Assembly: GCA_030691625.1 (NCBI GenBank)
Contig: JAUYDX010000088.1
Location: forward strand, 1,856 to 65,855
DNA length: 64,000 nt
DNA from: Candidatus Omnitrophota bacterium
Lineage (GTDB): Bacteria; Omnitrophota; Gorgyraeia; Gorgyraeales; Gorgyraeaceae
Reading direction: 5' to 3'
The notes under the pieces were generated by a model. It was not told where the DNA came from and did no database searches. It saw nothing but the letters and a program-made list of their open reading frames with translations. The stretch's first letter is position 1; the number at the start of each line of letters is the position of its first letter. This document shows, one piece after another, positions 34,122 to 55,164 of this stretch. The position numbers were made by a program, and so were the translations under genes.

Positions 34122-34250
34122 TTACGACAAAGGCAAACCATTCGAAAGAATGGGGCGCAAAGTCAACAGGCCTAAAGCCCTGAAGGGCAACGGCGGCTGG
34201 ATTACCGAAATTAAAAACCTATTCTGCCATGAGGCCGGATAGGTTTTTTA
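34122..34250 (+). ncRNA. c-di-GMP-I (GEMM) riboswitch candidate with intrinsic terminator, in leader of RlpA-like gene
   Basis: GGCAAACC-AUUCGAAAGAAUGG-GGCGCAAAG-..GGCCUAAAG..GGAUUACCGAAAU closely matches the Vibrio Vc2 GEMM aptamer as recalled from memory (GGGCAAACCAUUCGAAAGAGUGGGACGCAAAGCC..GGCCUAAAC..GGUUACCGAUGG); followed by AACCUAU..AUAGGUUUUUU terminator 15 nt before the RBS. Confidence 0.6.
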
Positions 34251-34649: not shown

Positions 34650-34838
34650 AACTCGCCTATTATACCTAAGTACAATTGATTTCATTTTGACATTCCTCTA
34701 TAGTATAAGCAGGTTTTAGAATGAGGAGAAAGGAGGCAATATGAAAGCGGAGGAAAAGGGGTTCAAAAAATTTTTATTGACAAATCAATTAAGGTAATTT
34801 ATAATACTTATTAACAAACTTTTAAAAGGAGGTGCGTG

Positions 34839-37409
34839 ATGCACAAGAAATTCTTGTTTTTGACTATCACAGCTATTGTATTTTGCTCATTTGTATTGGT
34901 GGGACTGGGATTCTGCTACCAGGTTCCCGGAGAACAGAGTAACGTTAAATACCTTTATACATTCGGAAAAGACGGCCAAAAAACATACGGCGCAATGAAA
35001 ACCGGGCCTCTGGTAATATTCGTCAGAGTTCCCAGTACCTATAATGGCAACATCCAGATAGGTATTTATGATCCTGATACAGGCGGCGCAATAGATGAAA
35101 AAGACGGCCAGTGGGATACAATCACAAAGTTTTCTATTTTAGGCGGAAAGAAAACGTATACTTCACTCCTGGAAGCGGACGAGAGTCATGTGCTTATTGA
35201 TAAAGAAAGCGACACGAATCCTGTGGATCCTTACCATGGAGATCTATTAGCTGAAAAGACATTCGGCAATGATGAGCAGTATGACAAAAAGATTTATAGC
35301 TTTGACCCTATTGACGCTTCAAAGGGCGAAGAAGCAGGCGGCTACAGGTATTTTAAAATAGTGATAGAAGGGCTTTCAGGCAACGATAACAATCTTTTTT
35401 CATTAGATATCTCTCCTGATACGTTAGAGGCCTTTAGCTTCGCGCCTAGGATAAGATTAGCGGAAACACGCGGCGCGAAAATGGCTTTTTATCCAGAAAT
35501 ACCTTCTGACTCAAGTAGAATTTATGAATATAACTATGACTTGGATCCTACAGGCGGAACCATAGACCTCATAAGCGCTTCCAGGGATTTCAGGATAAAA
35601 GGTTCTGCGACAGGCATGTGGGAAAGCACAGAAATTAAAGTCCCCAGCCAGGACGCAGGCAAAAGATGGGTTTATGAAATAACAAAAGACAGGCAGAAAC
35701 AGGGTAATATGGCATTTAGTTTATTGACAGACAAGGGCAGGTCAATACCTATATACTTTACTCCCGGCGCCGAAGGCCCTAAGCTGGTATTTGTTGAAAA
35801 ACCAAAAGAAACGCCTGCGCCAACCGGACAGCCTCTTTCGTGCAATACCTTCACATTTGACGGCTCGAAATCCTATGCGGCTGATAATAGCAAGCTGGCG
35901 TATTTCTGGGATTTCGGCGACGGAACTACAAGCACGGATATGAGAATAATGCATACCTATAAAGATGCGGGCAAATACCTTGTTAAATTGACAGTAAAAG
36001 ACGCTTCAGACGCGGAATGCAACACCGCAGACACACAGCAGATGGTAAAGGTAAACCAGCCGCCATGCGCTATCGCGGACGGCCCTGATCTGTCATGTTT
36101 GAACGAAGAGATCACATTTGACGGTTCGCAGACAACAGACAGCCCGGATGACAAGCTTACTTACAGATGGGATTTCGGGGACGGCCAGACAGCTGACGGT
36201 ATAAAGGTGAAGCATAAATACGCAAGAGGCGGGAATTATCAGGCTACGCTGACGGTAACGGATGATTCCGGTACCATATGCGACACCAGCGTTGATAAAA
36301 TAAAGGTAGGTATTAATACGCCTCCTACGGCAGACGCGGGCAAGGACACATTTATATGCAGTGTGAACCCGAGCCAGCCTCTGGATGTGGCGTTTGACGC
36401 TGCCGGTTCAAAGGATCAGGACGGAGACAAGCTTACTTATACATGGGATTTCGGCGATGGCCAGACAGGCGAAGGAAGGACCGTAAAACACACCTACGCT
36501 AAAGGCGGAGAGTATATAGCGAAGCTTATAGTGAGCGACAATACAGACACAGAATGCGACAAGGCAGTATCTACTAAGACAGTGGTGCTGAACAGAGCCC
36601 CCATAGCGAACGCGGGCAACGATCTTCAGATATGCACGGGCGATACAGCCAGTTTTGACGCGTCCGGTTCAACAGATAACGACGGAGACAGACTTAGCTA
36701 TGCCTGGGATTTTGGGGACGGTGAAAAAGCTGAAGGCAAGACTGTTTCCCATAAATATACAAAAGGCGGGGTTTATCAGGTTAAACTTATCGTGGACGAT
36801 GGCGCAAAAACAGACTGCTCGAGCGCGTCTGATAAACTGCTCGTTAACGTGAACACAGCCCCGAGCGCGATAATCGCTTCCAAGGATACCGCTTCTGTGG
36901 GCCAGACTGTGAATTTTGACAGCGCCAACTCAAATGATCTGGACGGCGACAAGCTCGGCTACACATGGGATTTTGGCGATGGCACCAGCGCGAGCGGAAG
37001 CGCGGCAAAGCACAGCTATTCAAAAGGCGGGCTTTATAAGGTAACGCTCGTTGTAGACGACCAGAAGAGGACAGACTGCTCGTCAGCCATCAATTCCCAG
37101 TACGTGAAGGTCAATACGCCTCCTGCGGCAGTCACGGGCCCGAATCTGATAGCCTGCGTAGGTGACGAAATTGAATTTGACGGGTCTAAGTCTACTGACC
37201 TGGATGGAGATAAACTGACATACAGGTGGGATTTTGGAGACGGGGAAACAGCGGAAGGCTTGAAAGTAAAGCACGCTTATAAAAAGCTTGGAACTTACAA
37301 GGTGAGCCTGATGGTTACAGATGACTCCGGCGTTGAAGGTAATTCATCAACATCCAGTCTTATGGCAACTATACATGATCAGCCTGTTTCGAAAATAGAG
37401 GTCATGTAA
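34839..37409 (+). CDS. secreted protein with N-terminal domain and ~8 tandem PKD domains
   Basis: repeated Y(R/T/A)WDFGDG(Q/T/E).. blocks about 85 aa apart, signal peptide. Confidence 0.8.
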   Translation: MHKKFLFLTITAIVFCSFVLVGLGFCYQVPGEQSNVKYLYTFGKDGQKTYGAMKTGPLVIFVRVPSTYNGNIQIGIYDPDTGGAIDEKDGQWDTITKFSILGGKKTYTSLLEADESHVLIDKESDTNPVDPYHGDLLAEKTFGNDEQYDKKIYSFDPIDASKGEEAGGYRYFKIVIEGLSGNDNNLFSLDISPDTLEAFSFAPRIRLAETRGAKMAFYPEIPSDSSRIYEYNYDLDPTGGTIDLISASRDFRIKGSATGMWESTEIKVPSQDAGKRWVYEITKDRQKQGNMAFSLLTDKGRSIPIYFTPGAEGPKLVFVEKPKETPAPTGQPLSCNTFTFDGSKSYAADNSKLAYFWDFGDGTTSTDMRIMHTYKDAGKYLVKLTVKDASDAECNTADTQQMVKVNQPPCAIADGPDLSCLNEEITFDGSQTTDSPDDKLTYRWDFGDGQTADGIKVKHKYARGGNYQATLTVTDDSGTICDTSVDKIKVGINTPPTADAGKDTFICSVNPSQPLDVAFDAAGSKDQDGDKLTYTWDFGDGQTGEGRTVKHTYAKGGEYIAKLIVSDNTDTECDKAVSTKTVVLNRAPIANAGNDLQICTGDTASFDASGSTDNDGDRLSYAWDFGDGEKAEGKTVSHKYTKGGVYQVKLIVDDGAKTDCSSASDKLLVNVNTAPSAIIASKDTASVGQTVNFDSANSNDLDGDKLGYTWDFGDGTSASGSAAKHSYSKGGLYKVTLVVDDQKRTDCSSAINSQYVKVNTPPAAVTGPNLIACVGDEIEFDGSKSTDLDGDKLTYRWDFGDGETAEGLKVKHAYKKLGTYKVSLMVTDDSGVEGNSSTSSLMATIHDQPVSKIEVM

Positions 37410-48061: not shown

Positions 48062-48107
48062 CAAACTACTTTACATTGAGACAATGACGCAATGTAAAGT
48101 AGTTTAG
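48062..48107. repeat. family-1 palindrome copy M (TTTACATTG variant)
   Basis: same variant as copies G and Q. Confidence 0.85.
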
Positions 48108-48796
48108 AGGGAGTATTTGATGATGGCCCACAATACGCCCAGAGAATATATCCTTTTGAATTTTTTGCCTTCTTTGAATGTCCTGGCTTTATAGGGGATA
48201 GGGACCTCTCTGATTTTAAAACCCGCCTTGCTTATCTTAGCCGTTATTTCCGGCTCTATGTCAAAACCCCTGGATTTCAGGGTAATATTGCTCAGCGCGC
48301 GTTTTTTAAAGACCTTAAAACATGTCATGCAGTCTGTGAGGGATGTGCGGCACAGGGCATTTGTAAGGTAATTCCCGAAACGGTTTGCCAGAAAATACGA
48401 AAGCCTCATTCCTAAAGGGTGCGGTTCTGCCAGGAACCTGGAACCGTAAACAACGTCGGCATTTTCCGTTATAACAGGTTTCAGCAGGCTGGGATACAGG
48501 GAAGGGCTGTATTCCAGGTCAGCGTCCTGGATTATTATTATGTCGCCTGTGGCGTGCGCTATCCCTGATATGAGCGCCGCTCCTTTCCCCTGGTTTTTCA
48601 CGTGCCTGATAACCCTCGCGCTTGGCATTACTATGGAGGCCTTTTCAACCGTCTTGTCTGTGGACCCGTCGTCAATCAAAAGGACCTCTTTTTCAGATAT
48701 ACCGAAAGGAGAAAGGTCCAGGGATTTTATTTCCCTCATAACCTGGGCTATGGTGGCTTCTTCATTGTAAGCGGGTACCAGGATAGAAAGTTTCAT
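48104..48796 (-). CDS. family-2 glycosyltransferase (dolichyl-phosphate mannose synthase-like)
   Basis: GT2 motifs [22 protein letters not shown]. Confidence 0.85.
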
Positions 48797-48988: not shown

Positions 48989-49008
48989 AAATCAAAGAGG
49001 AGGTGGAT

Positions 49009-49638
49009 ATGTTTGTTACAGGCGAAATTTATCATGTTTATAGTAAGAGTATAGCTGATTTTAAGATATTCAATAATGATTTTGAATACCAGAGAATTAA
49101 TAAAGCAATGCAATATTATCAAGTTTCTAAACGGCCTGGAAGTTTTTCTAACTTTTTGGAATACGGGAAACAGCTTTCAGCGGGTAATACCAATAATAAA
49201 CTGGTGCAAATTATTTCTTATTGTCCGATGCCGACTCATTTGCATTTTACCTTAAAGCAATTAATAGAAAAAGGGATATCAACATTTATGAGCAATGTCC
49301 TCAATAGCTATACCCGTTATTTTAATATCAAGCATAACCGTAAAGGTCCGCTATGGGAAGGGCGGTTCAAGAAAGTATTGGTGAAAAGCGATGAACAGCT
49401 AATTCATCTGACTCGCTATATCCATTTAAATCCTGTTACAGCAGGTTTGGTTAATAATCCGATAGATTGGCCATGGTCTTCTTATCATGAGTTTATTAAT
49501 AAAGATTTAACAGAAGACAGCATTTGTGAATACAAAAATATATTAGACATAAAACCTGATAGTTATAAAGCATTCACAGAAGATAGAGCTTCTTATCAAA
49601 GAGAATTGGCAAAAATAAAGCATATACTGATCGATTAG
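49009..49638 (+). CDS. REP-associated tyrosine transposase (RAYT; IS200/IS605 TnpA-like HUH enzyme)
   Basis: HUH motif HLHFTL, catalytic Tyr region RYIHLNPV, ~200 aa; flanked on both sides by inverted family-2 palindromes. Confidence 0.8.
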   Translation: MFVTGEIYHVYSKSIADFKIFNNDFEYQRINKAMQYYQVSKRPGSFSNFLEYGKQLSAGNTNNKLVQIISYCPMPTHLHFTLKQLIEKGISTFMSNVLNSYTRYFNIKHNRKGPLWEGRFKKVLVKSDEQLIHLTRYIHLNPVTAGLVNNPIDWPWSSYHEFINKDLTEDSICEYKNILDIKPDSYKAFTEDRASYQRELAKIKHILID

Positions 49639-49680: not shown

Positions 49681-51411
49681 ATCAGGGTGTGGTATAATAG
49701 ACGCATGGCAGTTAAAAATATATTTTTAATTATCATTATAATTATCGCGGCAGCCGCGCCTTATATAAACTCCATGCACAATCCTTTCATCTGGGACGAG
49801 GAGGAGATTATAGTAAAAAATCCCGTGATAAAAGATTGGAGCTACCTGCCGCATGTTTTTAAGACAAACATTTTCGGGACAGCAATAACCCCGTCCGGTT
49901 ACTACAGGCCCATGTATACGCTGTCATTCATGGCAGATTACAATATCTGGGGCCTTAATACCTTCGGATACCACCTCTTTAATATCCTATTCCATGTTTT
50001 AAACGCTATTTTGCTGTATTTACTTCTCATGAAGCTTGGGCTGGACAGGAAAATCGCATGCTTTAGCAGTGTATTATTCGCTGTGTATCCGATAAACTGC
50101 GAAGCTGTTACGCTTATAGCCGCAAGAGTGGAGCTCATAGCGGGTTTTCTGCTTTTATCGTGCATGATATGTTTTATCAATGGCGTAAAAGGCCGGGGGC
50201 TTAATTTTCTATTGTCCATTATTTTCTTTGCGCTGGCCATGTTGACAAAAGAAAGCGTTATGGTATTCCCGTTTATACTACTGGCTTACACCCTGATATT
50301 CGTAGAGAAAAAGCCCGGGTCAAAGGCTATTTTACCTTTAATGGTTTTGATATTAATGGCCGCGTTTTACGGTATTGCCAGGTTCCTGCTTCTGGGCCAC
50401 TCGCCGGTCACAACCTTATCCCTTATAAACAGCGCCAGTTTTATTGAAAAGGTTTTTACGTTGCCGGGGATATTATTTACATATGTGTCGCTTATATTGT
50501 TTCCTGTCAGGCTGATAAGCGAATACGATTTTGTGCTGCGAAGTTTCTGGGATCCGCGCGTCTGGCTGGCAGCGTTTTTATTAATAGCCATGTTTTCAGC
50601 CGCGTATCTGCGGCTTAAGCCAAAAAAATATCCGCTATTTTTCATATCCTGGTTTTTAATAAGCCTGGCGCCTTACTTTAATATAATAATCCCCCTGCAT
50701 GCCACTCTTATGGAGCATTGGGCGTATTTTTCCACAATGGGTTTCGCTGCCCTGTCAGGGATAGCTGTTTTTAATATGGCTGAATCCGCGTCTTCCAGGT
50801 GGCTGAAAGGGCTTCTGATCCTGATGGCCGCGTCCCTTATCGGATTTTATATCGCGAAGATAACAGAGCGCAACATGGAATGGAGCGATCCTTTCAGGTT
50901 ATACCAGGCAGATGTTAAAAAAGAGCCGAATAGTTTTTTACTGCATTGCAATCTGGGCGTGGAGTATTTCAGGAGAGGGATGACGGAAGAGGCTGAAAAA
51001 GAATTCCTGGAATGCAATAATGTAAGCCCCGGCGGTAAATATGACACAGCCTGCAATAACCTGGGAGTGATATACGCGAGAAAAGGCAGGACAGAAGAGG
51101 CAATAGCTTTATACAAGGAGAGCATAGACATCAATAACTATCCCCTGGCTTATGAAAATTTAGGCGGGCTTTATAATGCCATGGGTAAACATAGAGACGC
51201 TGTATTAATTCTTGAAAAAGGCGCTGAGCTGTACCCATTAAACATTAATATCCTGTACCAGTTAGGGATCGCTTATTACATGAACAAGGAATTTGGCCCG
51301 GCTAAACAGATGTTTCTGAGGGTGGAGGGGATCCAGAAAAATTATTCAGACACAGCCAAATTCCTCAATCTCCTAAACAACTTGACACTTCAAACATTGT
51401 CACAAGTGTAA
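49675..51411 (+). CDS. polytopic membrane protein with C-terminal TPR repeats, paralog of 46174-47778; C-terminus and stop inside a family-1 palindrome
   Basis: same architecture and alignable N-terminus (..WDEEEII / FQFDDVKRIVG..) as the paralog. Confidence 0.6.
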   Translation: MVIRVWYNRRMAVKNIFLIIIIIIAAAAPYINSMHNPFIWDEEEIIVKNPVIKDWSYLPHVFKTNIFGTAITPSGYYRPMYTLSFMADYNIWGLNTFGYHLFNILFHVLNAILLYLLLMKLGLDRKIACFSSVLFAVYPINCEAVTLIAARVELIAGFLLLSCMICFINGVKGRGLNFLLSIIFFALAMLTKESVMVFPFILLAYTLIFVEKKPGSKAILPLMVLILMAAFYGIARFLLLGHSPVTTLSLINSASFIEKVFTLPGILFTYVSLILFPVRLISEYDFVLRSFWDPRVWLAAFLLIAMFSAAYLRLKPKKYPLFFISWFLISLAPYFNIIIPLHATLMEHWAYFSTMGFAALSGIAVFNMAESASSRWLKGLLILMAASLIGFYIAKITERNMEWSDPFRLYQADVKKEPNSFLLHCNLGVEYFRRGMTEEAEKEFLECNNVSPGGKYDTACNNLGVIYARKGRTEEAIALYKESIDINNYPLAYENLGGLYNAMGKHRDAVLILEKGAELYPLNINILYQLGIAYYMNKEFGPAKQMFLRVEGIQKNYSDTAKFLNLLNNLTLQTLSQV

Positions 51412-51420
51412 AGTTGTTAG
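51373..51420. repeat. family-1 palindrome copy N, supplies C-terminus and stop of TPR-membrane gene
   Basis: inverted repeat; host ORF ends ..NLTLQTLSQV* inside it. Confidence 0.9.
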
Positions 51421-51463
51421 GATGGCTTGACCGGAGATGGATTATGCGATATAATAAAAACCA

Positions 51464-52909
51464 ATGAGCGCTGGGAAAAAGAAGGTATTATTAGCTGAGC
51501 ATGAGACAGGCATTGCTGAAATAATCCAGTATCTCCTTAAGGCGTGGGATTACGAAACGATTATTATTTCAAAGGGCTCGGCAGTGCTGGAGGCAGTGAG
51601 GCGGGAACAGCCGGATATTATAATAATAGACTGGGGCCTGCCTGACATGGACGGCCTCAAGGTTTCCAGGGTACTCAAGGAAGATTTTCTCACCGCGCAC
51701 ATACCCGTAATAGTCCTCATAGACAAAAAACAGATAAGAAAAAAGATGCTCGAGATAGAGCAGGGCGTGGACGATTATATCGCCAACCCGCCTGACCCTA
51801 TAGACCTGGAGGTCAGGATGGAGCTTGCCCTGCGCAGGACCAGCCACCAGCTTTACGCGAATGCCCTCACAAAACTCCCGGGAAATAAACAGATAGAAAA
51901 GGCCATACATGCCAGGATGGATGCGAAAGAATTGTTTTCAGTGGCGTATTATGATATAGATAATTTTAAATCATTCAATGACAAATACGGCTACATGAAA
52001 GGCGACAGCGTGATAAGGCACACGGCTTATATTATCTCCACAACGGTCAAGAGATACGGTAATCCCGGCGATTTCGTGGGGCACATAGGAGGGGACGATT
52101 TCGTGGTGGTCACTACGCCTGACAGGGACAGGCTGGTCGCATCAGAGTCTATACTGGCCTTTACCAGGGCAGTGCATTTTCATTATTCAAAAGAGGACAG
52201 GGACAGGACTTATATAGTGGCAAAAGACAGGCGGGGCAACGTGGTGAATACGCCTCTGATGAGCATCTCAATAGCCATAGCGAACAATAAAAATTTCCCT
52301 ATAAAAAATATGGTGGAGCTGATGGAGATTATCACAGAGATAAAACATTACCTGAAGACCCTGCCCGGGAGCAATTTTCTTGTGAATAGGCGCCAGACTG
52401 AAAAGAGGTTATTCATAGAAGAACCCTGCGCCGCGCCGGGACAGGCTAACAAAGAAGATAAATTCAGGCATAAGCCGCTCGGCCAGATACTGCTGGAGTC
52501 GCAGGTGATTACGCCGGAACAGCTTGAAACCGCGCTAAACAGGCATTGGTCCACCGGCCAGAAAATAGGACAAAGCATAATGAACCTTGGCATGGCCAGC
52601 TCAGGTGATATTGCCAGGGCACTGGAAACGCAGTTCAATGTCCCGCACTTTGATATCCGGGACATGAGCGAAAACGGAGAATTAAAAGAGATAATGTCCA
52701 AGGTGTCTTTTGAGATAATGAAACATTACGGGGTTGTGCCTGTGAGAAAGGATAAAAATACGCTGCTCCTGGCAATGCTCGACCCTAAAAATATGGAGGC
52801 AATGGCTAAGATAAAAAGCCTCACTGGGTGCGTCATAGCGCCTTTATTTGTCCTGGAGAGCGAATTCAGCGAGATATTTGACAGGGTGGCGGTTAAATCA
52901 GGGCTATAA
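51464..52909 (+). CDS. response-regulator receiver + GGDEF diguanylate cyclase (GGDDF) + C-terminal MshEN/T2SSE_N c-di-GMP-binding domain
   Basis: REC with conserved Asp; GGDDF active-site variant with RxxD-like I-site region; C-terminal LGQILLESQVITPEQLETAL...LLLAMLDP pattern typical of the GspE-N/MshEN fold. Confidence 0.8.
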   Translation: MSAGKKKVLLAEHETGIAEIIQYLLKAWDYETIIISKGSAVLEAVRREQPDIIIIDWGLPDMDGLKVSRVLKEDFLTAHIPVIVLIDKKQIRKKMLEIEQGVDDYIANPPDPIDLEVRMELALRRTSHQLYANALTKLPGNKQIEKAIHARMDAKELFSVAYYDIDNFKSFNDKYGYMKGDSVIRHTAYIISTTVKRYGNPGDFVGHIGGDDFVVVTTPDRDRLVASESILAFTRAVHFHYSKEDRDRTYIVAKDRRGNVVNTPLMSISIAIANNKNFPIKNMVELMEIITEIKHYLKTLPGSNFLVNRRQTEKRLFIEEPCAAPGQANKEDKFRHKPLGQILLESQVITPEQLETALNRHWSTGQKIGQSIMNLGMASSGDIARALETQFNVPHFDIRDMSENGELKEIMSKVSFEIMKHYGVVPVRKDKNTLLLAMLDPKNMEAMAKIKSLTGCVIAPLFVLESEFSEIFDRVAVKSGL

Positions 52910-52911
52910 AA

Positions 52912-53090
52912 AAGAAAAAAGCCGATAAAGGCTTTTAGCTTCGGCTTTTCATCGCTCGGCAACCCGGCCGCCATATTATTACTGACTGCCTCACTGACCA
53001 TTTGCGTTAGCTCAGGTCACGGCTTGTCAGAATAACTTAGGCCCGTAGGCTTTGCGCCCCCTGATTTCTCAGGGTTTGCCCTTATCGGCT
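52912..53090 (-). ncRNA. c-di-GMP-I (GEMM) riboswitch-like RNA with own promoter and terminator, convergent with/antisense-oriented to the GGDEF gene
   Basis: minus-strand RNA AGCCGAUAAGGGCAAACC-CUGAGAAAUCAGG-GGGCGCAAAGCC-UACGGGCCUAAG...GGCGGCCGGGUUGCCGAGCGAUG matches the GEMM consensus; ends in a hairpin plus U6. Confidence 0.55.
52917..52950. terminator. bidirectional intrinsic terminator (ends GGDEF gene on + and GEMM RNA on -)
   Basis: AAGCCGA..TCGGCTT hairpin flanked by A-run on one side and T-run on the other. Confidence 0.6.
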
Positions 53091-53096
53091 ATAATA

Positions 53097-53125
53097 AGTA
53101 TACCATATAAATCCAGGGTTTTCAA
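53097..53125 (-). promoter_or_regulatory. sigma-70-like promoter on minus strand (TTGAAA-17-TATACT) driving the GEMM RNA
   Basis: reverse complement of 53120-53125 is TTGAAA, 17 nt spacer, TATACT at 53102-53097, TSS about 53090. Confidence 0.6.
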
Positions 53126-53196: not shown

Positions 53197-54210
53197 TTGA
53201 AGAGATACAGTCTGGCAGTTTTGTTTGGCTTTGCGCTTGTATTGATGTCTTATGAATGCGCGTTTTGCAAGCCAATACCTATACGCAACCAGATGCCTTT
53301 GTATTTATTTTATCTGCAGATGGAGCCTGATAAAGCAGGCGTAACAGAGAAGGATAAATTTGATATAGACGCGGATTATACAGTTTCAAACGTAACCGTA
53401 AGCTGTTTCACCCCTGACACGTCCATGTACAATATAAACATTGACGCTGAGGTTTCCAGGGTGACGCTTGATCTAAGATACGGCGTTTTTGAGAATTTCG
53501 AGGCAGGCCTGGAGGCGCCTTATCTGATCCTGTCGCGGGGTTACTTAGATAGTTTTGTGGAAGATTTTGAGGACGCGATAGGCGCCAGGACGCCGCGCTC
53601 CAGGATACGCCAGGGCACAAATAATTACAATTACTCTTTTATCTACAATGGCCAGGATCTGATAAATAAGAAAAGCGCCTCGGACGGCCTGGGCGATATG
53701 GCGCTGAAGGCCAAATACAGGATTATCGAGGAGGAAGAAGGTTTTTTCGCGCCTAATGTCTCTATAAGGAGCGCGCTGAAGCTTCCCACGGGCAGGAAAA
53801 GGGACCTCCTGGGCAGCGGAGAATTTGACTGGGGCCTGGGCGTGATAGCTGACAAGTCATTTTCCAAGAGGATGAGTTTTTACTGCGGCCTGAATGTCGT
53901 GTTTATACAAAAGCCGGATTTTTTCAGCGCGTTGAATATAAAAAAGGAGATAGCCTCCGGTTTTATTGGCATTGAATATTTTTTCACAGAAAGGTTTTCC
54001 CTGGTGGCGCAGGTCTCAGGCAATACCACGCCTTACCCTGACAGCGGGACAAATGCCCTGGACGAGTCCGCGGGCGATGTGAGTTTCGGTATTAATTATA
54101 TCTGGAAAGAAAAGCGCAATGTTTCGTGGCGTTTCGCGTTTACGGAAAATATAAATTCCGCGTCCAGTCCGGACGTGAGTTTTAATACAGGGTGGGATGT
54201 GGGGTTCTGA
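53197..54210 (+). CDS. outer-membrane beta-barrel protein, hypothetical
   Basis: signal peptide, beta-strand periodicity, C-terminal GWDVGF. Confidence 0.5.
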   Translation: MKRYSLAVLFGFALVLMSYECAFCKPIPIRNQMPLYLFYLQMEPDKAGVTEKDKFDIDADYTVSNVTVSCFTPDTSMYNINIDAEVSRVTLDLRYGVFENFEAGLEAPYLILSRGYLDSFVEDFEDAIGARTPRSRIRQGTNNYNYSFIYNGQDLINKKSASDGLGDMALKAKYRIIEEEEGFFAPNVSIRSALKLPTGRKRDLLGSGEFDWGLGVIADKSFSKRMSFYCGLNVVFIQKPDFFSALNIKKEIASGFIGIEYFFTERFSLVAQVSGNTTPYPDSGTNALDESAGDVSFGINYIWKEKRNVSWRFAFTENINSASSPDVSFNTGWDVGF

Positions 54211-54213
54211 TCA

Positions 54214-55164
54214 ATGAAGATAAAAGGGGTTTTTATAACAGTTTTTGTTATTTTAGTGATTTTAATTGCCGCGCTGGCTGTTTTTATACTGACCTTTGAC
54301 GCCAACCGCTATAAAGGCGCGTTGATAGAAAAGCTGGAGGCGTCTATGGATAAGGACGTGCGCATAGACAGCATCTCTGTAAATATCCTGGCCGGGTTCG
54401 GCGTGGAGGCAAAAGGCATCGCCATAAAAGACAGGGGTAAGCCGTGGACCGATTATTTATTAGAGGCCAAGAGCCTGAATGCGAGCGTAGAGATCTTTCC
54501 GCTTCTGAAAAAGGATATTCGGATTCAGAGATTGCGCATACCCGGCCTGATCATAAATACCGGATCCGGCACAAATTTCAGGTGCGCGCTTGATTTAAAA
54601 ATGAGTATTTTAATCAATAGCATGTCGCAGGAAGACATGTTGAAGACATTAAGCGCGAAGGGAAACATGAAAGTGGACAATGCGGTTCTGGAAAACGTGA
54701 ATGTCCTGAATGCGGCATTGGATAAGCTGAATATGCTGCCTGACCTTGTCCAGAAATTAAAGGATAATCTGCCTGAGAAATACAGCAAGCTTTTAGACCA
54801 GAATAACACTGTGTTTAAGCCCATGGATGCGGATTTCGAAATAAGGGATGCCAGGATTTATTTTGACAAGCTTTTGGTGGAATCAGACGCGTTTTATCTG
54901 GCGGGCAAAGGGTCTATCGGCATGGACCAGGCCTTAGATATAGGCGCTTATCTATCCATACCGCAGGACCTTTCAGAGGCGTTTATTAAAGTCGTGCCGG
55001 AACTAGGCTATCTTACAGATAAAAAAGGCCTTATAACAATGCCGCTCCAGATAACAGGCAGCGCGCCAAATATATCTATCGCGCCTGACCTCAATTACGT
55101 GATACAGAGATTGCTTGTGTCAAAAGGCCAGGAACTGCTGGATAAACTCTTTAAAAGAAAATAG
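54214..55164 (+). CDS. AsmA-like membrane-anchored protein
   Basis: single N-terminal TM anchor, AsmA-family-like repetitive beta-rich region. Confidence 0.4.
   Translation: MKIKGVFITVFVILVILIAALAVFILTFDANRYKGALIEKLEASMDKDVRIDSISVNILAGFGVEAKGIAIKDRGKPWTDYLLEAKSLNASVEIFPLLKKDIRIQRLRIPGLIINTGSGTNFRCALDLKMSILINSMSQEDMLKTLSAKGNMKVDNAVLENVNVLNAALDKLNMLPDLVQKLKDNLPEKYSKLLDQNNTVFKPMDADFEIRDARIYFDKLLVESDAFYLAGKGSIGMDQALDIGAYLSIPQDLSEAFIKVVPELGYLTDKKGLITMPLQITGSAPNISIAPDLNYVIQRLLVSKGQELLDKLFKRK

What the first reader, a model, noticed from the sequence alone, without database searches (positions are those of the whole stretch)
51464..52909. REC-GGDEF(GGDDF)-MshEN three-domain protein: receiver-controlled cyclase fused to a c-di-GMP receptor domain
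Receiver domain, GGDEF domain with GGDDF active-site variant, and a C-terminal domain with the GspE-N/MshEN-like pattern (LGQILLESQVITPEQLETAL...LLLAMLDP). MshEN domains bind c-di-GMP with high affinity, so a cyclase carrying its own product sensor suggests autoregulation or local signalling. It pairs with the antisense GEMM RNA next door.
Basis: partly seen in the sequence, partly recalled or inferred. Interest (0 to 1): 0.5.

Follow-up and report, generated by a model that had tools for sequence, protein, structure and literature searches.

The report
Self-sensing c-di-GMP cyclase with antisense riboswitch
An uncultured Omnitrophota bacterium encodes a likely c-di-GMP-making enzyme that carries its own c-di-GMP sensor domain, has a receiver domain that seems to have lost its phosphorylation switch, and is always paired with a c-di-GMP riboswitch pointing back into the gene, so the messenger probably controls both the activity and the expression of its own synthase.

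Summary
ORF 51464-52909 (+), 481 aa, carries REC, a GGDEF domain with an invariant GGDDF motif, and a complete MshEN domain. All three pass curated thresholds, and the C-terminal model's best PDB match is c-di-GMP-bound MshE.

The interpretation needs correcting. The protein belongs to a widespread, uncharacterised REC-GGDDF family. Family members without MshEN have a canonical receiver and often an adjacent histidine kinase. Every member with the MshEN twin motif, including this one, has lost key receiver residues (here D13H, T86I, K108N) and has no kinase neighbour. So "receiver-controlled" is doubtful, and c-di-GMP binding has probably replaced phosphorylation as the input.

The catalytic-site residues are invariant and the RxxD I-site is absent, so the domain looks like an enzyme. 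GGDDF activity has one experimental precedent.

A c-di-GMP-I riboswitch with its own promoter and terminator lies convergent at the gene's 3' end in all 10 close loci examined. It is canonical by its ligand-contact nucleotides, not a true GGC variant, and no conserved ORF follows it.

Verdict: a new variant of known parts. No GGDEF-MshEN fusion was found in the literature searched. The direction of both feedback layers is unresolved.

The parts
51427..51455 (+). Sense promoter TTGACC-17-TATAAT. It ends 8 nt before the ATG, which implies a leaderless or nearly leaderless mRNA.
   Evidence: 11 of 12 consensus matches. The same TTGAC[CT]-17-TATAAT lies 6-8 nt before the ATG in 8 of 10 homologous loci.
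51464..52909 (+). CDS of the 481-aa REC-GGDDF-MshEN protein.
   Evidence: A 100% identical protein, P0001, is annotated 'diguanylate cyclase [Candidatus Omnitrophota bacterium]'.
51485..51811 (+). Receiver (REC) domain, aa 8-116. It is degenerate: E12, H13, D56, I86, N108 in place of D, D, D, T/S, K.
   Evidence: Pfam hit. REC fold, TMt 0.86-0.92 to MtrA, PhoB and DivK. Residue table across 90 family members.
51797..51871 (+). Long stalk helix (aa 112-136) joining REC to GGDEF, as in WspR and DgcR.
   Evidence: AF2 secondary structure H112-136. The top fold matches are WspR, DgcR and PleD.
51866..52393 (+). GGDEF-type domain, aa 135-310, with invariant GHIGGDDF (aa 206-213), a beta-hairpin insertion (aa ~240-265) and no RxxD I-site (NPGD at aa 200-203).
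   Evidence: TMt 0.79 to the GcbC GGDEF domain.
52394..52471 (+). Low-confidence, poorly conserved linker, aa 311-336.
   Evidence: pLDDT below 50 for aa 312-335. The columns are variable in alignment A1.
52475..52633 (+). [quoted passage not shown] Motif I is PLGQILLESQVITPEQLETALNRH and motif II is KIGQSIMNLGMASSGDIARALETQ.
   Evidence: NF053729, 53.2 bits against a cutoff of 38. Four-helix bundle in the dedicated model. Motif definitions from PMC5013675.
52634..52897 (+). MshEN_C alpha/beta subdomain, aa 391-478.
   Evidence: Pfam PF05157. Aligns to PilF, PilB and MshE. Fold match to 5HTL over 140 columns.
52910..52950 (-). Expression platform of the riboswitch: a terminator hairpin (GAAAAGCCGA...UCGGCUUUU) plus U-tract. 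It contains the conserved switching sequence GCCUUUAUCGGCU, and it is also a possible weak terminator for the sense gene.
   Evidence: terminator scan, minus strand 52936-52917. Conserved in 10 of 10 loci. The duplex with the aptamer 5' end is -20 to -23 kcal/mol.
52954..53089 (-). c-di-GMP-I type riboswitch aptamer with a roughly 56-nt insertion that extends hairpin P1b.
   Evidence: Homologous aptamers score 51-68 bits to RF01051 or 56-62 bits to RF03167. Nine pairs show compensatory changes.
53097..53125 (-). Promoter of the riboswitch transcript, TTGAAA-17-TATACT with an extended -10 TG.
   Evidence: TTGAAA...TGgTAtAaT is conserved in 10 of 10 loci, and the aptamer begins about 7 nt downstream.

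Best explanation
The gene encodes a WspR/DgcR-like REC-stalk-GGDEF enzyme, most likely a diguanylate cyclase that uses a GGDDF active site.

Its receiver has degenerated into a pseudo-receiver that serves as a dimerisation scaffold and can no longer act as a phospho-switch. Its regulatory input is instead c-di-GMP, bound by the C-terminal MshEN domain. Because the family lacks the usual RxxD inhibitory site, MshEN most likely supplies product feedback on the cyclase. Inhibition is the more probable direction, but activation is not excluded.

A second layer acts on expression. A c-di-GMP-I riboswitch with its own strong promoter is transcribed convergently from just beyond the stop codon. Depending on c-di-GMP, that transcript either stops at a terminator placed at or inside the 3' end of the gene, or continues as an antisense RNA through the gene. 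The sense mRNA is leaderless and so has no 5'-UTR available for control.

Shown: the domain identities, the residue states, family-wide conservation, the conserved RNA unit and its alternative pairings. Inferred: catalytic activity, c-di-GMP binding, loss of phosphorylation, and the sign of both feedbacks.
For: Domains and fold.

Enzyme-like active site. D164 (PleD D327), F168, K169, N172 (N335), D173, G180, G206, H207, GGDDF, R256, K294, K298 and R310 are invariant or nearly so across 90 family members from many phyla, and D181 (D344) is D in 92%. The I-site is absent throughout the family. This is the reverse of the pattern in degenerate GGDEF receptors. GGDDF activity has a precedent in GSU1937 (PMC8835794).

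Receiver degeneration tracks the MshEN_N module. All 19 proteins with the twin motif (query plus 18 loci) have a degenerate receiver, against 2 of 71 without it. There are at least three different loss patterns, including D56S and D56A. A histidine kinase gene is adjacent in 32 of 70 loci with a canonical receiver and in none of the query-clade loci.

MshEN is plausibly functional. It passes the NCBIfam twin-motif model. Motif II fits the relaxed pattern of PMC5013675. The 'KPLG' start of motif I also occurs in PilF GSPII-C, which binds c-di-GMP.

Riboswitch unit. The promoter, aptamer and terminator are conserved in 10 of 10 loci at 63% protein identity or more. Covariation is seen in P1b. 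The ligand-contact nucleotides are canonical. No conserved ORF follows. The leaderless sense promoter is conserved.
Against: GGDDF lies outside the accepted [GAS]G[DE]E[FY] motif, and another GGDDF protein (PA3258) shows no cyclase activity. PleD R366 and R446 are replaced by His207 and Ser303.

Motif I of MshEN deviates at two positions even of the relaxed pattern (Q347 in place of G/A/S, and H361 in place of Q). A terminal His also occurs in the non-binding PilF GSPII-A, and that study shows that sequence motifs alone do not predict binding.

Asp56 is retained, so some atypical phosphorylation cannot be excluded.

The long-range helix and the terminator are invariant, so covariation neither supports nor refutes them. 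Both alternative RNA folds place a stem directly before the U-tract, so ligand-dependent read-through is not demonstrated.

Inter-domain geometry in the full-length model is unreliable (pTM 0.43).
Confidence: 0.5

Rival explanations
1. The GGDDF domain is catalytically dead and the protein is purely a c-di-GMP effector. MshEN senses c-di-GMP, and the REC-GGDDF body passes the signal to a partner, for example the neighbouring glycosyltransferase or envelope proteins, or simply binds GTP as a sensor.
For: The motif is non-canonical (GGDDF) and PleD R366 and R446 are replaced. PA3258, which also has GGDDF, is inactive as a cyclase. The gene has conserved synteny with GT2, DUF3187 and AsmA envelope genes.
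Against: Degenerate GGDEF receptors normally lose the A-site and keep the RxxD I-site. Here the A-site constellation is invariant across phyla and the I-site is absent. The metal-binding residues (D164, D211) and the guanine-binding residues (N172, D181) are kept. A GGDDF domain has been shown to be active.
Confidence: 0.22
2. The GGDDF subfamily makes a product other than c-di-GMP, such as another cyclic or linear dinucleotide. MshEN and the riboswitch would then couple that pathway to c-di-GMP levels as cross-talk, not as autoregulation.
For: The active site is remodelled in a family-specific way: invariant His207, Asp212, Arg256 in an inserted hairpin, Lys298 and Ser303. GGDEF enzymes with altered product specificity do exist, for example Hypr GGDEFs that make cGAMP.
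Against: The guanine-specifying pair N172 and D181 is kept. The Hypr signature is a Ser at the D344 position, and only 2 of 70 distant members have Ser there. Nothing here points to a different nucleotide. The riboswitch carries the c-di-GMP-type contact nucleotides.
Confidence: 0.1
3. The riboswitch does not primarily regulate the REC-GGDDF-MshEN gene. Either it drives a long transcript that, after crossing the gene in antisense, serves as mRNA for the same-strand GT2 glycosyltransferase (an excludon-like arrangement), or it is a stand-alone c-di-GMP-binding small RNA of about 180 nt.
For: GT2 is on the riboswitch strand immediately beyond the gene in L081-L084, L087 and L089, and at 48104-48796 in the window. 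Both RNA conformations end in a stem plus U-tract, which is compatible with a constitutively terminated small RNA.
Against: GT2 is not adjacent in L085 or L086. In the window it is separated by two inserted plus-strand genes, about 2.7 kb further on. The only element always found downstream of the riboswitch is the antisense of the gene itself. The 1.45-kb antisense leader is unverified.
Confidence: 0.15

Closest known systems
WspR / DgcR / PleD (REC-GGDEF diguanylate cyclases)
   Same: The REC-stalk helix-GGDEF architecture and fold are shared; these are the top PDB matches. The metal-binding and guanine-binding residues are conserved.
   Different: Three of the five receiver signature residues are lost. 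The motif is GGDDF where these enzymes have GGEEF. There is no RxxD I-site. PleD R366 is His and R446 is Ser. The protein has an inserted beta-hairpin carrying an invariant Arg256 and an extra C-terminal MshEN domain.
MshE, PilF GSPII-B/C and NfrB (MshEN c-di-GMP receptor domains)
   Same: A complete MshEN_N four-helix bundle plus the MshEN_C alpha/beta subdomain is present. The best fold match is c-di-GMP-bound MshE, 5HTL. The twin 24-residue motifs have the 5-residue spacer.
   Different: The domain is at the C-terminus of a GGDEF protein, not at the N-terminus of an ATPase or glycosyltransferase. Motif I starts [KR]PLG and ends in His. A fusion to GGDEF is not among the partners listed by Wang et al. 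2016 (REC, HD-GYP, CheA, CheX, adenylate/guanylate cyclase, Ser/Thr kinase).
Bd2402 of Bdellovibrio (response regulator with MshEN_N that binds c-di-GMP)
   Same: It combines a receiver domain with the MshEN_N module in one protein (PMC5013675). The ~400-aa relatives of the query likewise carry MshEN_N only.
   Different: According to that paper's description, Bd2402 has no GGDEF domain between the two modules. Its sequence was not compared here.
GSU1937 of Geobacter sulfurreducens (Hypr GGDEF with a GGDDF motif)
   Same: It has the same GGDDF substitution and has been shown to be catalytically active (PMC8835794).
   Different: GSU1937 is membrane-anchored and carries the Hypr Ser at the specificity position, and it makes cGAMP. 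The protein here keeps Asp181 and has REC and MshEN domains.
Antisense-acting riboswitches (Listeria B12/AspocR type; computationally predicted antisense c-di-GMP riboswitches, PMC9943018)
   Same: The riboswitch is convergent to, and within 500 nt of, the 3' end of a gene, with its own promoter and terminator. In that survey c-di-GMP riboswitches show the strongest antisense tendency (152 cases).
   Different: Here the target is a c-di-GMP-related enzyme that also carries a protein c-di-GMP sensor. In several loci the terminator is embedded in the coding sequence. The text of that paper and the supplements held here name no diguanylate cyclase as an antisense target.

Membership tests
Phosphorylatable response-regulator receiver (PF00072) | Receiver (beta-alpha)5 fold and profile match | tested here: met
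   55.7 bits against a cutoff of 30.2. TMt 0.86-0.92 to MtrA, PhoB and DivK receivers.
Phosphorylatable response-regulator receiver (PF00072) | Phospho-acceptor Asp (CheY D57) | tested here: met
   D56 is invariant in the close clade. It is lost (S or A) in the more distant MshEN-bearing relatives L008-L010.
Phosphorylatable response-regulator receiver (PF00072) | Mg2+-binding acidic pair (CheY D12, D13) | tested here: not met
   E12 and H13 here. Of the 70 distant family members, 69 have D at position 13.
Phosphorylatable response-regulator receiver (PF00072) | Switch Thr/Ser (CheY T87) and switch Lys (CheY K109) | tested here: not met
   I86 and N108 here. Distant members have T/S in 69 of 70 and K in 70 of 70.
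Phosphorylatable response-regulator receiver (PF00072) | Cognate histidine kinase encoded nearby | tested here: not met
   No kinase gene is adjacent in the window or in 9 homologous loci. One is adjacent in 32 of 70 loci of relatives with a canonical receiver. Orphan regulators exist, so this is only supportive.
GGDEF diguanylate cyclase (PF00990) | GGDEF-domain fold and profile match | tested here: met
   54.6 bits against a cutoff of 23.8. TIGR00254, 60 bits. TMt 0.6-0.79 to solved GGDEF domains.
GGDEF diguanylate cyclase (PF00990) | Active-site signature [GAS]G[DE]E[FY] | tested here: not met
   GGDDF, invariant in the family. One GGDDF enzyme is active (GSU1937) and one is inactive (PA3258).
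GGDEF diguanylate cyclase (PF00990) | Metal-binding Asp (PleD D327) and guanine-binding Asn/Asp (N335, D344) | tested here: met
   D164, N172 and D181 are conserved. D181 excludes the Hypr (Ser) signature.
GGDEF diguanylate cyclase (PF00990) | Phosphate-binding Lys/Arg (PleD K442, R446) and R366 | tested here: inconclusive
   K294 is invariant, but the GRN Arg is Ser303 and R366 is His207. New invariant residues R256, K298 and R310 might compensate. The K442 equivalence rests on sequence position only.
GGDEF diguanylate cyclase (PF00990) | RxxD allosteric I-site (typical of the family, not obligatory) | tested here: not met
   NPGD at aa 200-203. Position 200 is almost never Arg anywhere in the family.
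GGDEF diguanylate cyclase (PF00990) | Synthesis of c-di-GMP from GTP | not testable with these tools
   Needs an enzyme assay.
MshEN / GSPII c-di-GMP receptor domain (PF05157) | Profile match and two-subdomain fold | tested here: met
   PF05157, 52.9 bits. phmmer to PilF, PilB and MshE, E from 6e-29 to 6e-9. The dedicated model (pLDDT 88) has 5HTL as its best match, TMt 0.71.
MshEN / GSPII c-di-GMP receptor domain (PF05157) | [quoted passage not shown] | tested here: inconclusive
   The NF053729 model is passed (53.2 against 38) and the spacer is 5 residues. Motif II fits the relaxed pattern. Motif I has P in place of R (allowed, and seen in the binder GSPII-C), Q in place of the turn Gly, and H in place of the final Q (seen in the non-binder GSPII-A).
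MshEN / GSPII c-di-GMP receptor domain (PF05157) | High-affinity binding of monomeric c-di-GMP | not testable with these tools
   Needs ITC or DRaCALA. PMC12002112 shows that the motif alone is not predictive.
c-di-GMP-I riboswitch (RF01051) versus the GGC variant (RF03167) | Covariance-model score at or above the gathering threshold | tested here: met
   Window: RF03167, 59.9 against 59. Homologous aptamers: RF01051, 51-68 against 35.
c-di-GMP-I riboswitch (RF01051) versus the GGC variant (RF03167) | Variant-specific nucleotide (consensus ACGCGAAG in RF03167, ACGCAAAG in RF01051) | tested here: not met
   The window reads GCGCAAAGCC, which is the canonical A. It should be filed as a canonical c-di-GMP-I aptamer with a long P1b insertion.
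c-di-GMP-I riboswitch (RF01051) versus the GGC variant (RF03167) | Expression platform and a downstream sense gene | tested here: inconclusive
   The terminator and switching sequence are conserved in 10 of 10 loci. No conserved sense ORF follows; what lies downstream is the antisense of the GGDDF gene.

The most novel reading that the evidence does not exclude
This is a self-referential c-di-GMP circuit. One messenger gates the activity of its own synthase through an MshEN domain that took over the role of a now-defunct phospho-receiver. The same messenger gates that synthase's expression through a riboswitch-driven convergent antisense transcript whose terminator lies in or at the end of the coding sequence. 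If correct, this would be the first MshEN-regulated c-di-GMP synthase and the first conserved case of a riboswitch controlling a diguanylate cyclase gene in antisense. It would also point to a large, unstudied GHxGGDDF subfamily of response-regulator cyclases as active enzymes.
Probability: 0.3. Interest if true: 0.75.

Novelty: new variant of a known kind. Interest (0 to 1): 0.55.

Why it matters
Most diguanylate cyclases limit their own output through the RxxD I-site. This one would show a different solution: a high-affinity receptor domain bolted onto the enzyme, together with RNA-level feedback.

It also gives a clean evolutionary case of input swapping, in which phosphorylation input is lost as a second-messenger input is gained, within a family that can be compared directly with its canonical relatives.

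It offers a compact and conserved natural example for testing whether antisense-acting c-di-GMP riboswitches, so far only predicted computationally, really work.

Finally, it flags a widespread REC-GGDDF family, found in Actinomycetota, Chloroflexota, Clostridia, Planctomycetota, Omnitrophota and other phyla, whose activity would widen the accepted GGDEF active-site definition.

Tried and rejected
1. Variant-ligand riboswitch. The RF03167 'GGC' call suggested a non-c-di-GMP ligand that might match the odd GGDDF enzyme. Rejected: the diagnostic nucleotide is the canonical A, and homologous aptamers score better to RF01051.

2. Hypr (cGAMP) specificity. Rejected: Asp181 is kept at the PleD D344 position.

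3. Hidden RxxD I-site. Rejected: the site reads NPGD, and no Arg is conserved at that position in the family.

4. A small ORF regulated by the riboswitch, for example the 91-aa ORF 52726-53001 (-). Rejected: starts, frames and lengths differ between loci, and two loci have none.

5. The 37-nt palindromes flanking the gene as operators of this unit. Rejected: they are a dispersed REP-like repeat with at least 11 copies in the window, alongside a RAYT-like transposase gene.

6. Deciding ON versus OFF logic from folding. This led nowhere. Both the local terminator hairpin and the 12-13 bp long-range helix abut the U-tract, and all the nucleotides involved are invariant.

7. Literature searches for a described GGDEF-MshEN fusion, or for a named GHxGGDDF family, found none. 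Public databases give only generic names.

8. The invariance of GGDDF in loci L001-L080 is partly circular, because the genome scan used GH[IV]GGDDF as its search pattern. The independent evidence comes from the word-based protein search and alignment.
Full report
OBSERVATION

The ORF 51464..52909 (+), 481 aa, is present as described.
- Pfam gives three hits above the curated cutoffs: Response_reg at aa 8-116 (55.7 bits), GGDEF at aa 135-244 (54.6 bits, covering only profile positions 6-117 of 161) and MshEN at aa 391-475 (52.9 bits).
- NCBIfam adds NF053729, the 53-residue 'c-di-GMP motif, MshE-related'. It matches aa 338-390 end to end at 53.2 bits against a cutoff of 38.
- An identical protein is deposited as 'diguanylate cyclase' from a Candidatus Omnitrophota MAG. 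About 85 further clusters at 63-92% identity share the three Pfam domains.
- The window holds no other GGDEF or MshEN protein detectable by phmmer.

STRUCTURE

The full-length AlphaFold model has a mean pLDDT of 78.8, but its pTM is 0.43, so the arrangement of the domains is unreliable.
- It shows a receiver, a long helix (aa 112-136), a GGDEF fold with an extra beta-hairpin (aa ~250-264), a disordered linker (aa 312-335) and the C-terminal module.
- Its best PDB matches are WspR, DgcR and PleD.
- A separate model of aa 330-481 is confident (pLDDT 88, pTM 0.75). It has four short helices followed by a three-stranded alpha/beta subdomain.
- That model's best PDB match is V. cholerae MshE bound to c-di-GMP (5HTL, TMt 0.71 over 140 columns). 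The c-di-GMP-bound PilF GSPII-B structures follow.
- Sequence comparison agrees, with hits to PilF, PilB and MshE at E values from 6e-29 to 6e-9.

THE WIDER FAMILY, AND THE CHANGE IT FORCES IN THE INTERPRETATION

A scan of one genome per species found at least 596 loci that encode the REC-GGDDF core (query aa ~5-312). The phyla include Omnitrophota, Planctomycetota, Chloroflexota, Clostridia, Actinomycetota (Micromonospora and Salinispora among them), Elusimicrobiota and Acidobacteriota.
- Most members are about 310 aa and stop after the GGDDF domain.
- Public annotation is generic, for example 'GGDEF domain-containing response regulator'.

I aligned 89 locus-encoded proteins with the query.
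- Of the 71 proteins that lack the C-terminal twin motif, 69 have the full receiver quintet D/E-D-D-T/S-K.
- In 32 of the 70 distant loci (L011-L080), a GAF-HisKA-HATPase kinase gene abuts the gene.
- All 19 proteins with the twin motif (the query, L001-L003, L005-L010 and L081-L089) have a degenerate receiver.
- Three loss patterns are seen. The query clade reads E12-H13-D56-I86-N108. L005-L007 read S-S-D-I-K. L008-L010 have lost the acceptor Asp itself (S or A).
- No kinase gene flanks the query-clade genes.

Established knowledge of CheY-type receivers says that the acidic pair binds the Mg2+ needed for phosphotransfer, and that the Thr and Lys residues carry out the phosphorylation-induced switch. 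A receiver lacking three of these residues is therefore unlikely to work as a phospho-switch.

My reading is that the receiver decayed into a structural or dimerisation module once the c-di-GMP-binding module was acquired. The members are phylogenetically related, so the 19-against-2 contrast does not represent 19 independent events. The three distinct loss patterns do argue for relaxed selection across the whole MshEN-bearing group.

IS THE GGDDF DOMAIN AN ENZYME?

GGDDF is invariant in an alignment built from a word-based protein search, which is independent of the motif, down to 47% identity.
- Mapped onto PleD: D164 = D327 (metal), N172 = N335 and D181 = D344 (guanine), D211 = E370, D212 = E371, H207 replaces R366, K294 probably equals K442, and S303 replaces R446.
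- Family-specific invariant residues are H207, R256 (in the inserted hairpin), K298 and R310.
- The RxxD I-site is absent from the whole family.
- Degenerate GGDEF domains that act as receptors usually show the opposite pattern, with a decayed A-site and a kept I-site. This is domain knowledge. The conservation here therefore looks enzymatic.
- Retention of D181 argues against Hypr-type cGAMP synthesis.
- The Hammond laboratory showed that the GGDDF domain of GSU1937 is active in vivo and loses activity as GADDF. They also noted that the GGDDF-EAL protein PA3258 shows no cyclase activity, and that the fourth-position Glu normally acts across the dimer (PMC8835794).

I put roughly 0.6 on the protein being an active nucleotide cyclase, and somewhat less on c-di-GMP being its product.

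IS THE MshEN MODULE A BINDER?

Wang et al. define two 24-residue motifs joined by a 5-residue spacer. They also give a relaxed search pattern, [RKPN]hGxxhhxx[GAS]hhxxxxhxxxhxx[QNKRYWST] (PMC5013675).
- Motif II here (KIGQSIMNLGMASSGDIARALETQ) fits that pattern, and the spacer is 5 residues.
- Motif I (PLGQILLESQVITPEQLETALNRH) fits except for Q347 at the turn Gly and H361 at the final Gln.
- L339, G340, Q341, L354, L358, H361, W362 and G369 are invariant in the clade. A basic residue nearly always precedes the Pro.
- PilF GSPII-C starts its motif 'KPLGE' and binds c-di-GMP. PilF GSPII-A ends motif I in His and does not bind. That study shows binding cannot be read from the motif alone (PMC12002112).
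- Binding is therefore probable but unproven.
- About 400-aa relatives keep only MshEN_N, which is the ligand-binding subdomain.

HOW COMMON IS THE FUSION?

An exhaustive HMMER search of 1.84 billion cluster representatives was run with aa 130-481.
- About 12 representatives cover both GGDDF and the full MshEN, and about 4 carry MshEN_N only.
- About 470 representatives (E of 1e-30 or better) carry the GGDDF-type domain behind a variety of N-terminal regions.
- The fusion is therefore a small, lineage-restricted offshoot.
- I found no paper that describes a GGDEF-MshEN protein.

THE RIBOSWITCH UNIT

Rfam places a GEMM-I type aptamer on the minus strand at 53089..52954, 44 nt beyond the stop codon.
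- Upstream of it lies a near-consensus extended -10 promoter (TTGAAA-17-TATACT, 53125..53097). Downstream lies a hairpin plus U-tract (52950..52910).
- The same arrangement occurs in L001, L081-L087 and L089. That is every examined homolog at 63% identity or more, including a ~400-aa MshEN_N-only form. It is absent from the more distant L002 and L088.
- The promoter, the aptamer and the platform sequence 'GAUGAAAAGCCGA...GCCUUUAUCGGCUUUUUU' are nearly invariant.
- The inserted P1b hairpin varies, with compensatory changes at 9 pairs.
- The homologous aptamers switch between RF01051 and RF03167 as best model. At the nucleotide where the two consensus sequences differ (ACGCAAAG against ACGCGAAG), all carry the canonical A. 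I therefore treat the element as a c-di-GMP sensor.
- In five loci the terminator lies inside the last codons of the gene. This explains the conserved C-terminal 'KKADKG' tail of those proteins.
- No conserved ORF follows on the minus strand.
- The 5'-most 12-13 nt of the aptamer, which include the pocket nucleotides, are complementary to 'GCCUUUAUCGGC(U)' next to the U-tract (-20 to -23 kcal/mol). That helix dominates the predicted minimum-energy fold in all 10 loci. It excludes both the ligand-bound aptamer and the local terminator hairpin.
- Both alternatives place a stem against the U-tract, and every base involved is invariant. I therefore cannot say whether c-di-GMP promotes or prevents read-through.
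- The sense gene has a conserved TTGAC[CT]-17-TATAAT promoter that ends 6-8 nt before the ATG in 8 of 10 loci. This implies a leaderless mRNA with no 5'-UTR for regulation, and it gives a rationale for control from the 3' end.
- A computational survey found that c-di-GMP riboswitches have the strongest tendency to sit antisense to genes (152 cases). In its text and in the supplements held here it names no diguanylate cyclase as an antisense target (PMC9943018).

GENOMIC CONTEXT

The conserved order is GT2 glycosyltransferase (-), REC-GGDDF-MshEN (+), riboswitch (-), DUF3187 (+), then AsmA or RluA (+).
- In the window, a RAYT-like transposase gene and a PMT_2/TPR gene have been inserted between GT2 and the gene.
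- GT2 lies on the riboswitch strand, so an excludon-like long transcript is possible in most loci. It cannot be a universal feature, because GT2 is missing from L085 and L086.

VERDICT

The most likely reading is a phosphorylation-independent, c-di-GMP-sensing cyclase of the WspR/DgcR type with a second, RNA-level c-di-GMP input.

Every component belongs to a known family. The combination, the input swap and the conserved antisense riboswitch together make it a new variant of a known kind. Catalysis, ligand binding and the sign of both feedback loops all remain to be tested.

Noticed in passing
window 3671, 9075, 12642, 23116, 29630, 40536, 43702, 53142, 57417 (plus partial copies at 51380-51418, 1413, 1838, 7769, 39649); ORF 49003-49638 (+): A 37-nt palindrome, AACTTGACACTTGTAACAATGTCACAAGTGTCAAGTT, occurs at least 11 times (3 mismatches or fewer; 0 expected by chance) at sites that appear to be intergenic. 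An IS200-like Y1 transposase (RAYT-like) gene lies in the same window. This looks like a REP/RAYT system in an Omnitrophota genome. Two copies flank the REC-GGDDF-MshEN/riboswitch unit.
   Followed up: partly
window 34122-34209 (+) and ORF 34836-37409 (+): A second, canonical c-di-GMP-I riboswitch (81.8 bits) lies about 625 nt upstream of an 857-aa protein with six PKD repeats, probably a surface or adhesion protein. The long gap and the true start of the ORF were not examined.
   Followed up: no
window 51427-51466; the same position in L081-L085, L087, L089: The sense promoter's -10 box ends only 6-8 nt before the ATG and there is no Shine-Dalgarno sequence. The gene is probably expressed as a leaderless mRNA, and the feature is conserved in 8 of 10 loci.
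   Followed up: partly
L001, L082, L083, L084, L086 (3' end of the homologous genes): The riboswitch terminator overlaps the last codons of the convergent gene, so the conserved C-terminal peptide 'KKADKG' is the reverse-complement reading of the terminator stem. Here an RNA element constrains a protein tail.
   Followed up: partly
L011-L080 (genome loci from many phyla): There is a widespread, uncharacterised family of ~310-aa response regulators with an invariant GH[IV]GGDDF motif, an inserted hairpin carrying an invariant Arg, and no I-site. The gene is often adjacent to a GAF-histidine kinase gene (32 of 70 loci), and a FIST-domain gene lies further upstream in 10. In Micromonospora and Salinispora it sits next to a gene whose product resembles ribulose-phosphate 3-epimerase; that neighbour was not checked against Pfam. 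Some members are longer (~440 aa, and 1235 aa in L037) with unexamined extensions.
   Followed up: partly
L082 998-1297, L083 978-1393, L087 860-1215, L089 1075-1398 (+): Sub-threshold matches to the cspA thermoregulator 5'-UTR (39-60 bits against a gathering score of 78) lie upstream of cold-shock-domain genes, two genes away from the homologous REC-GGDDF-MshEN genes.
   Followed up: no
window 53197-55164 (+): DUF3187 (a 337-aa product with a signal-peptide-like N-terminus) and a short AsmA-family protein always or often follow the unit on the plus strand. The weak plus-strand terminator at 52910-52950 might allow read-through from the GGDDF gene into them, opposed by the convergent riboswitch promoter. 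This was not tested.
   Followed up: no
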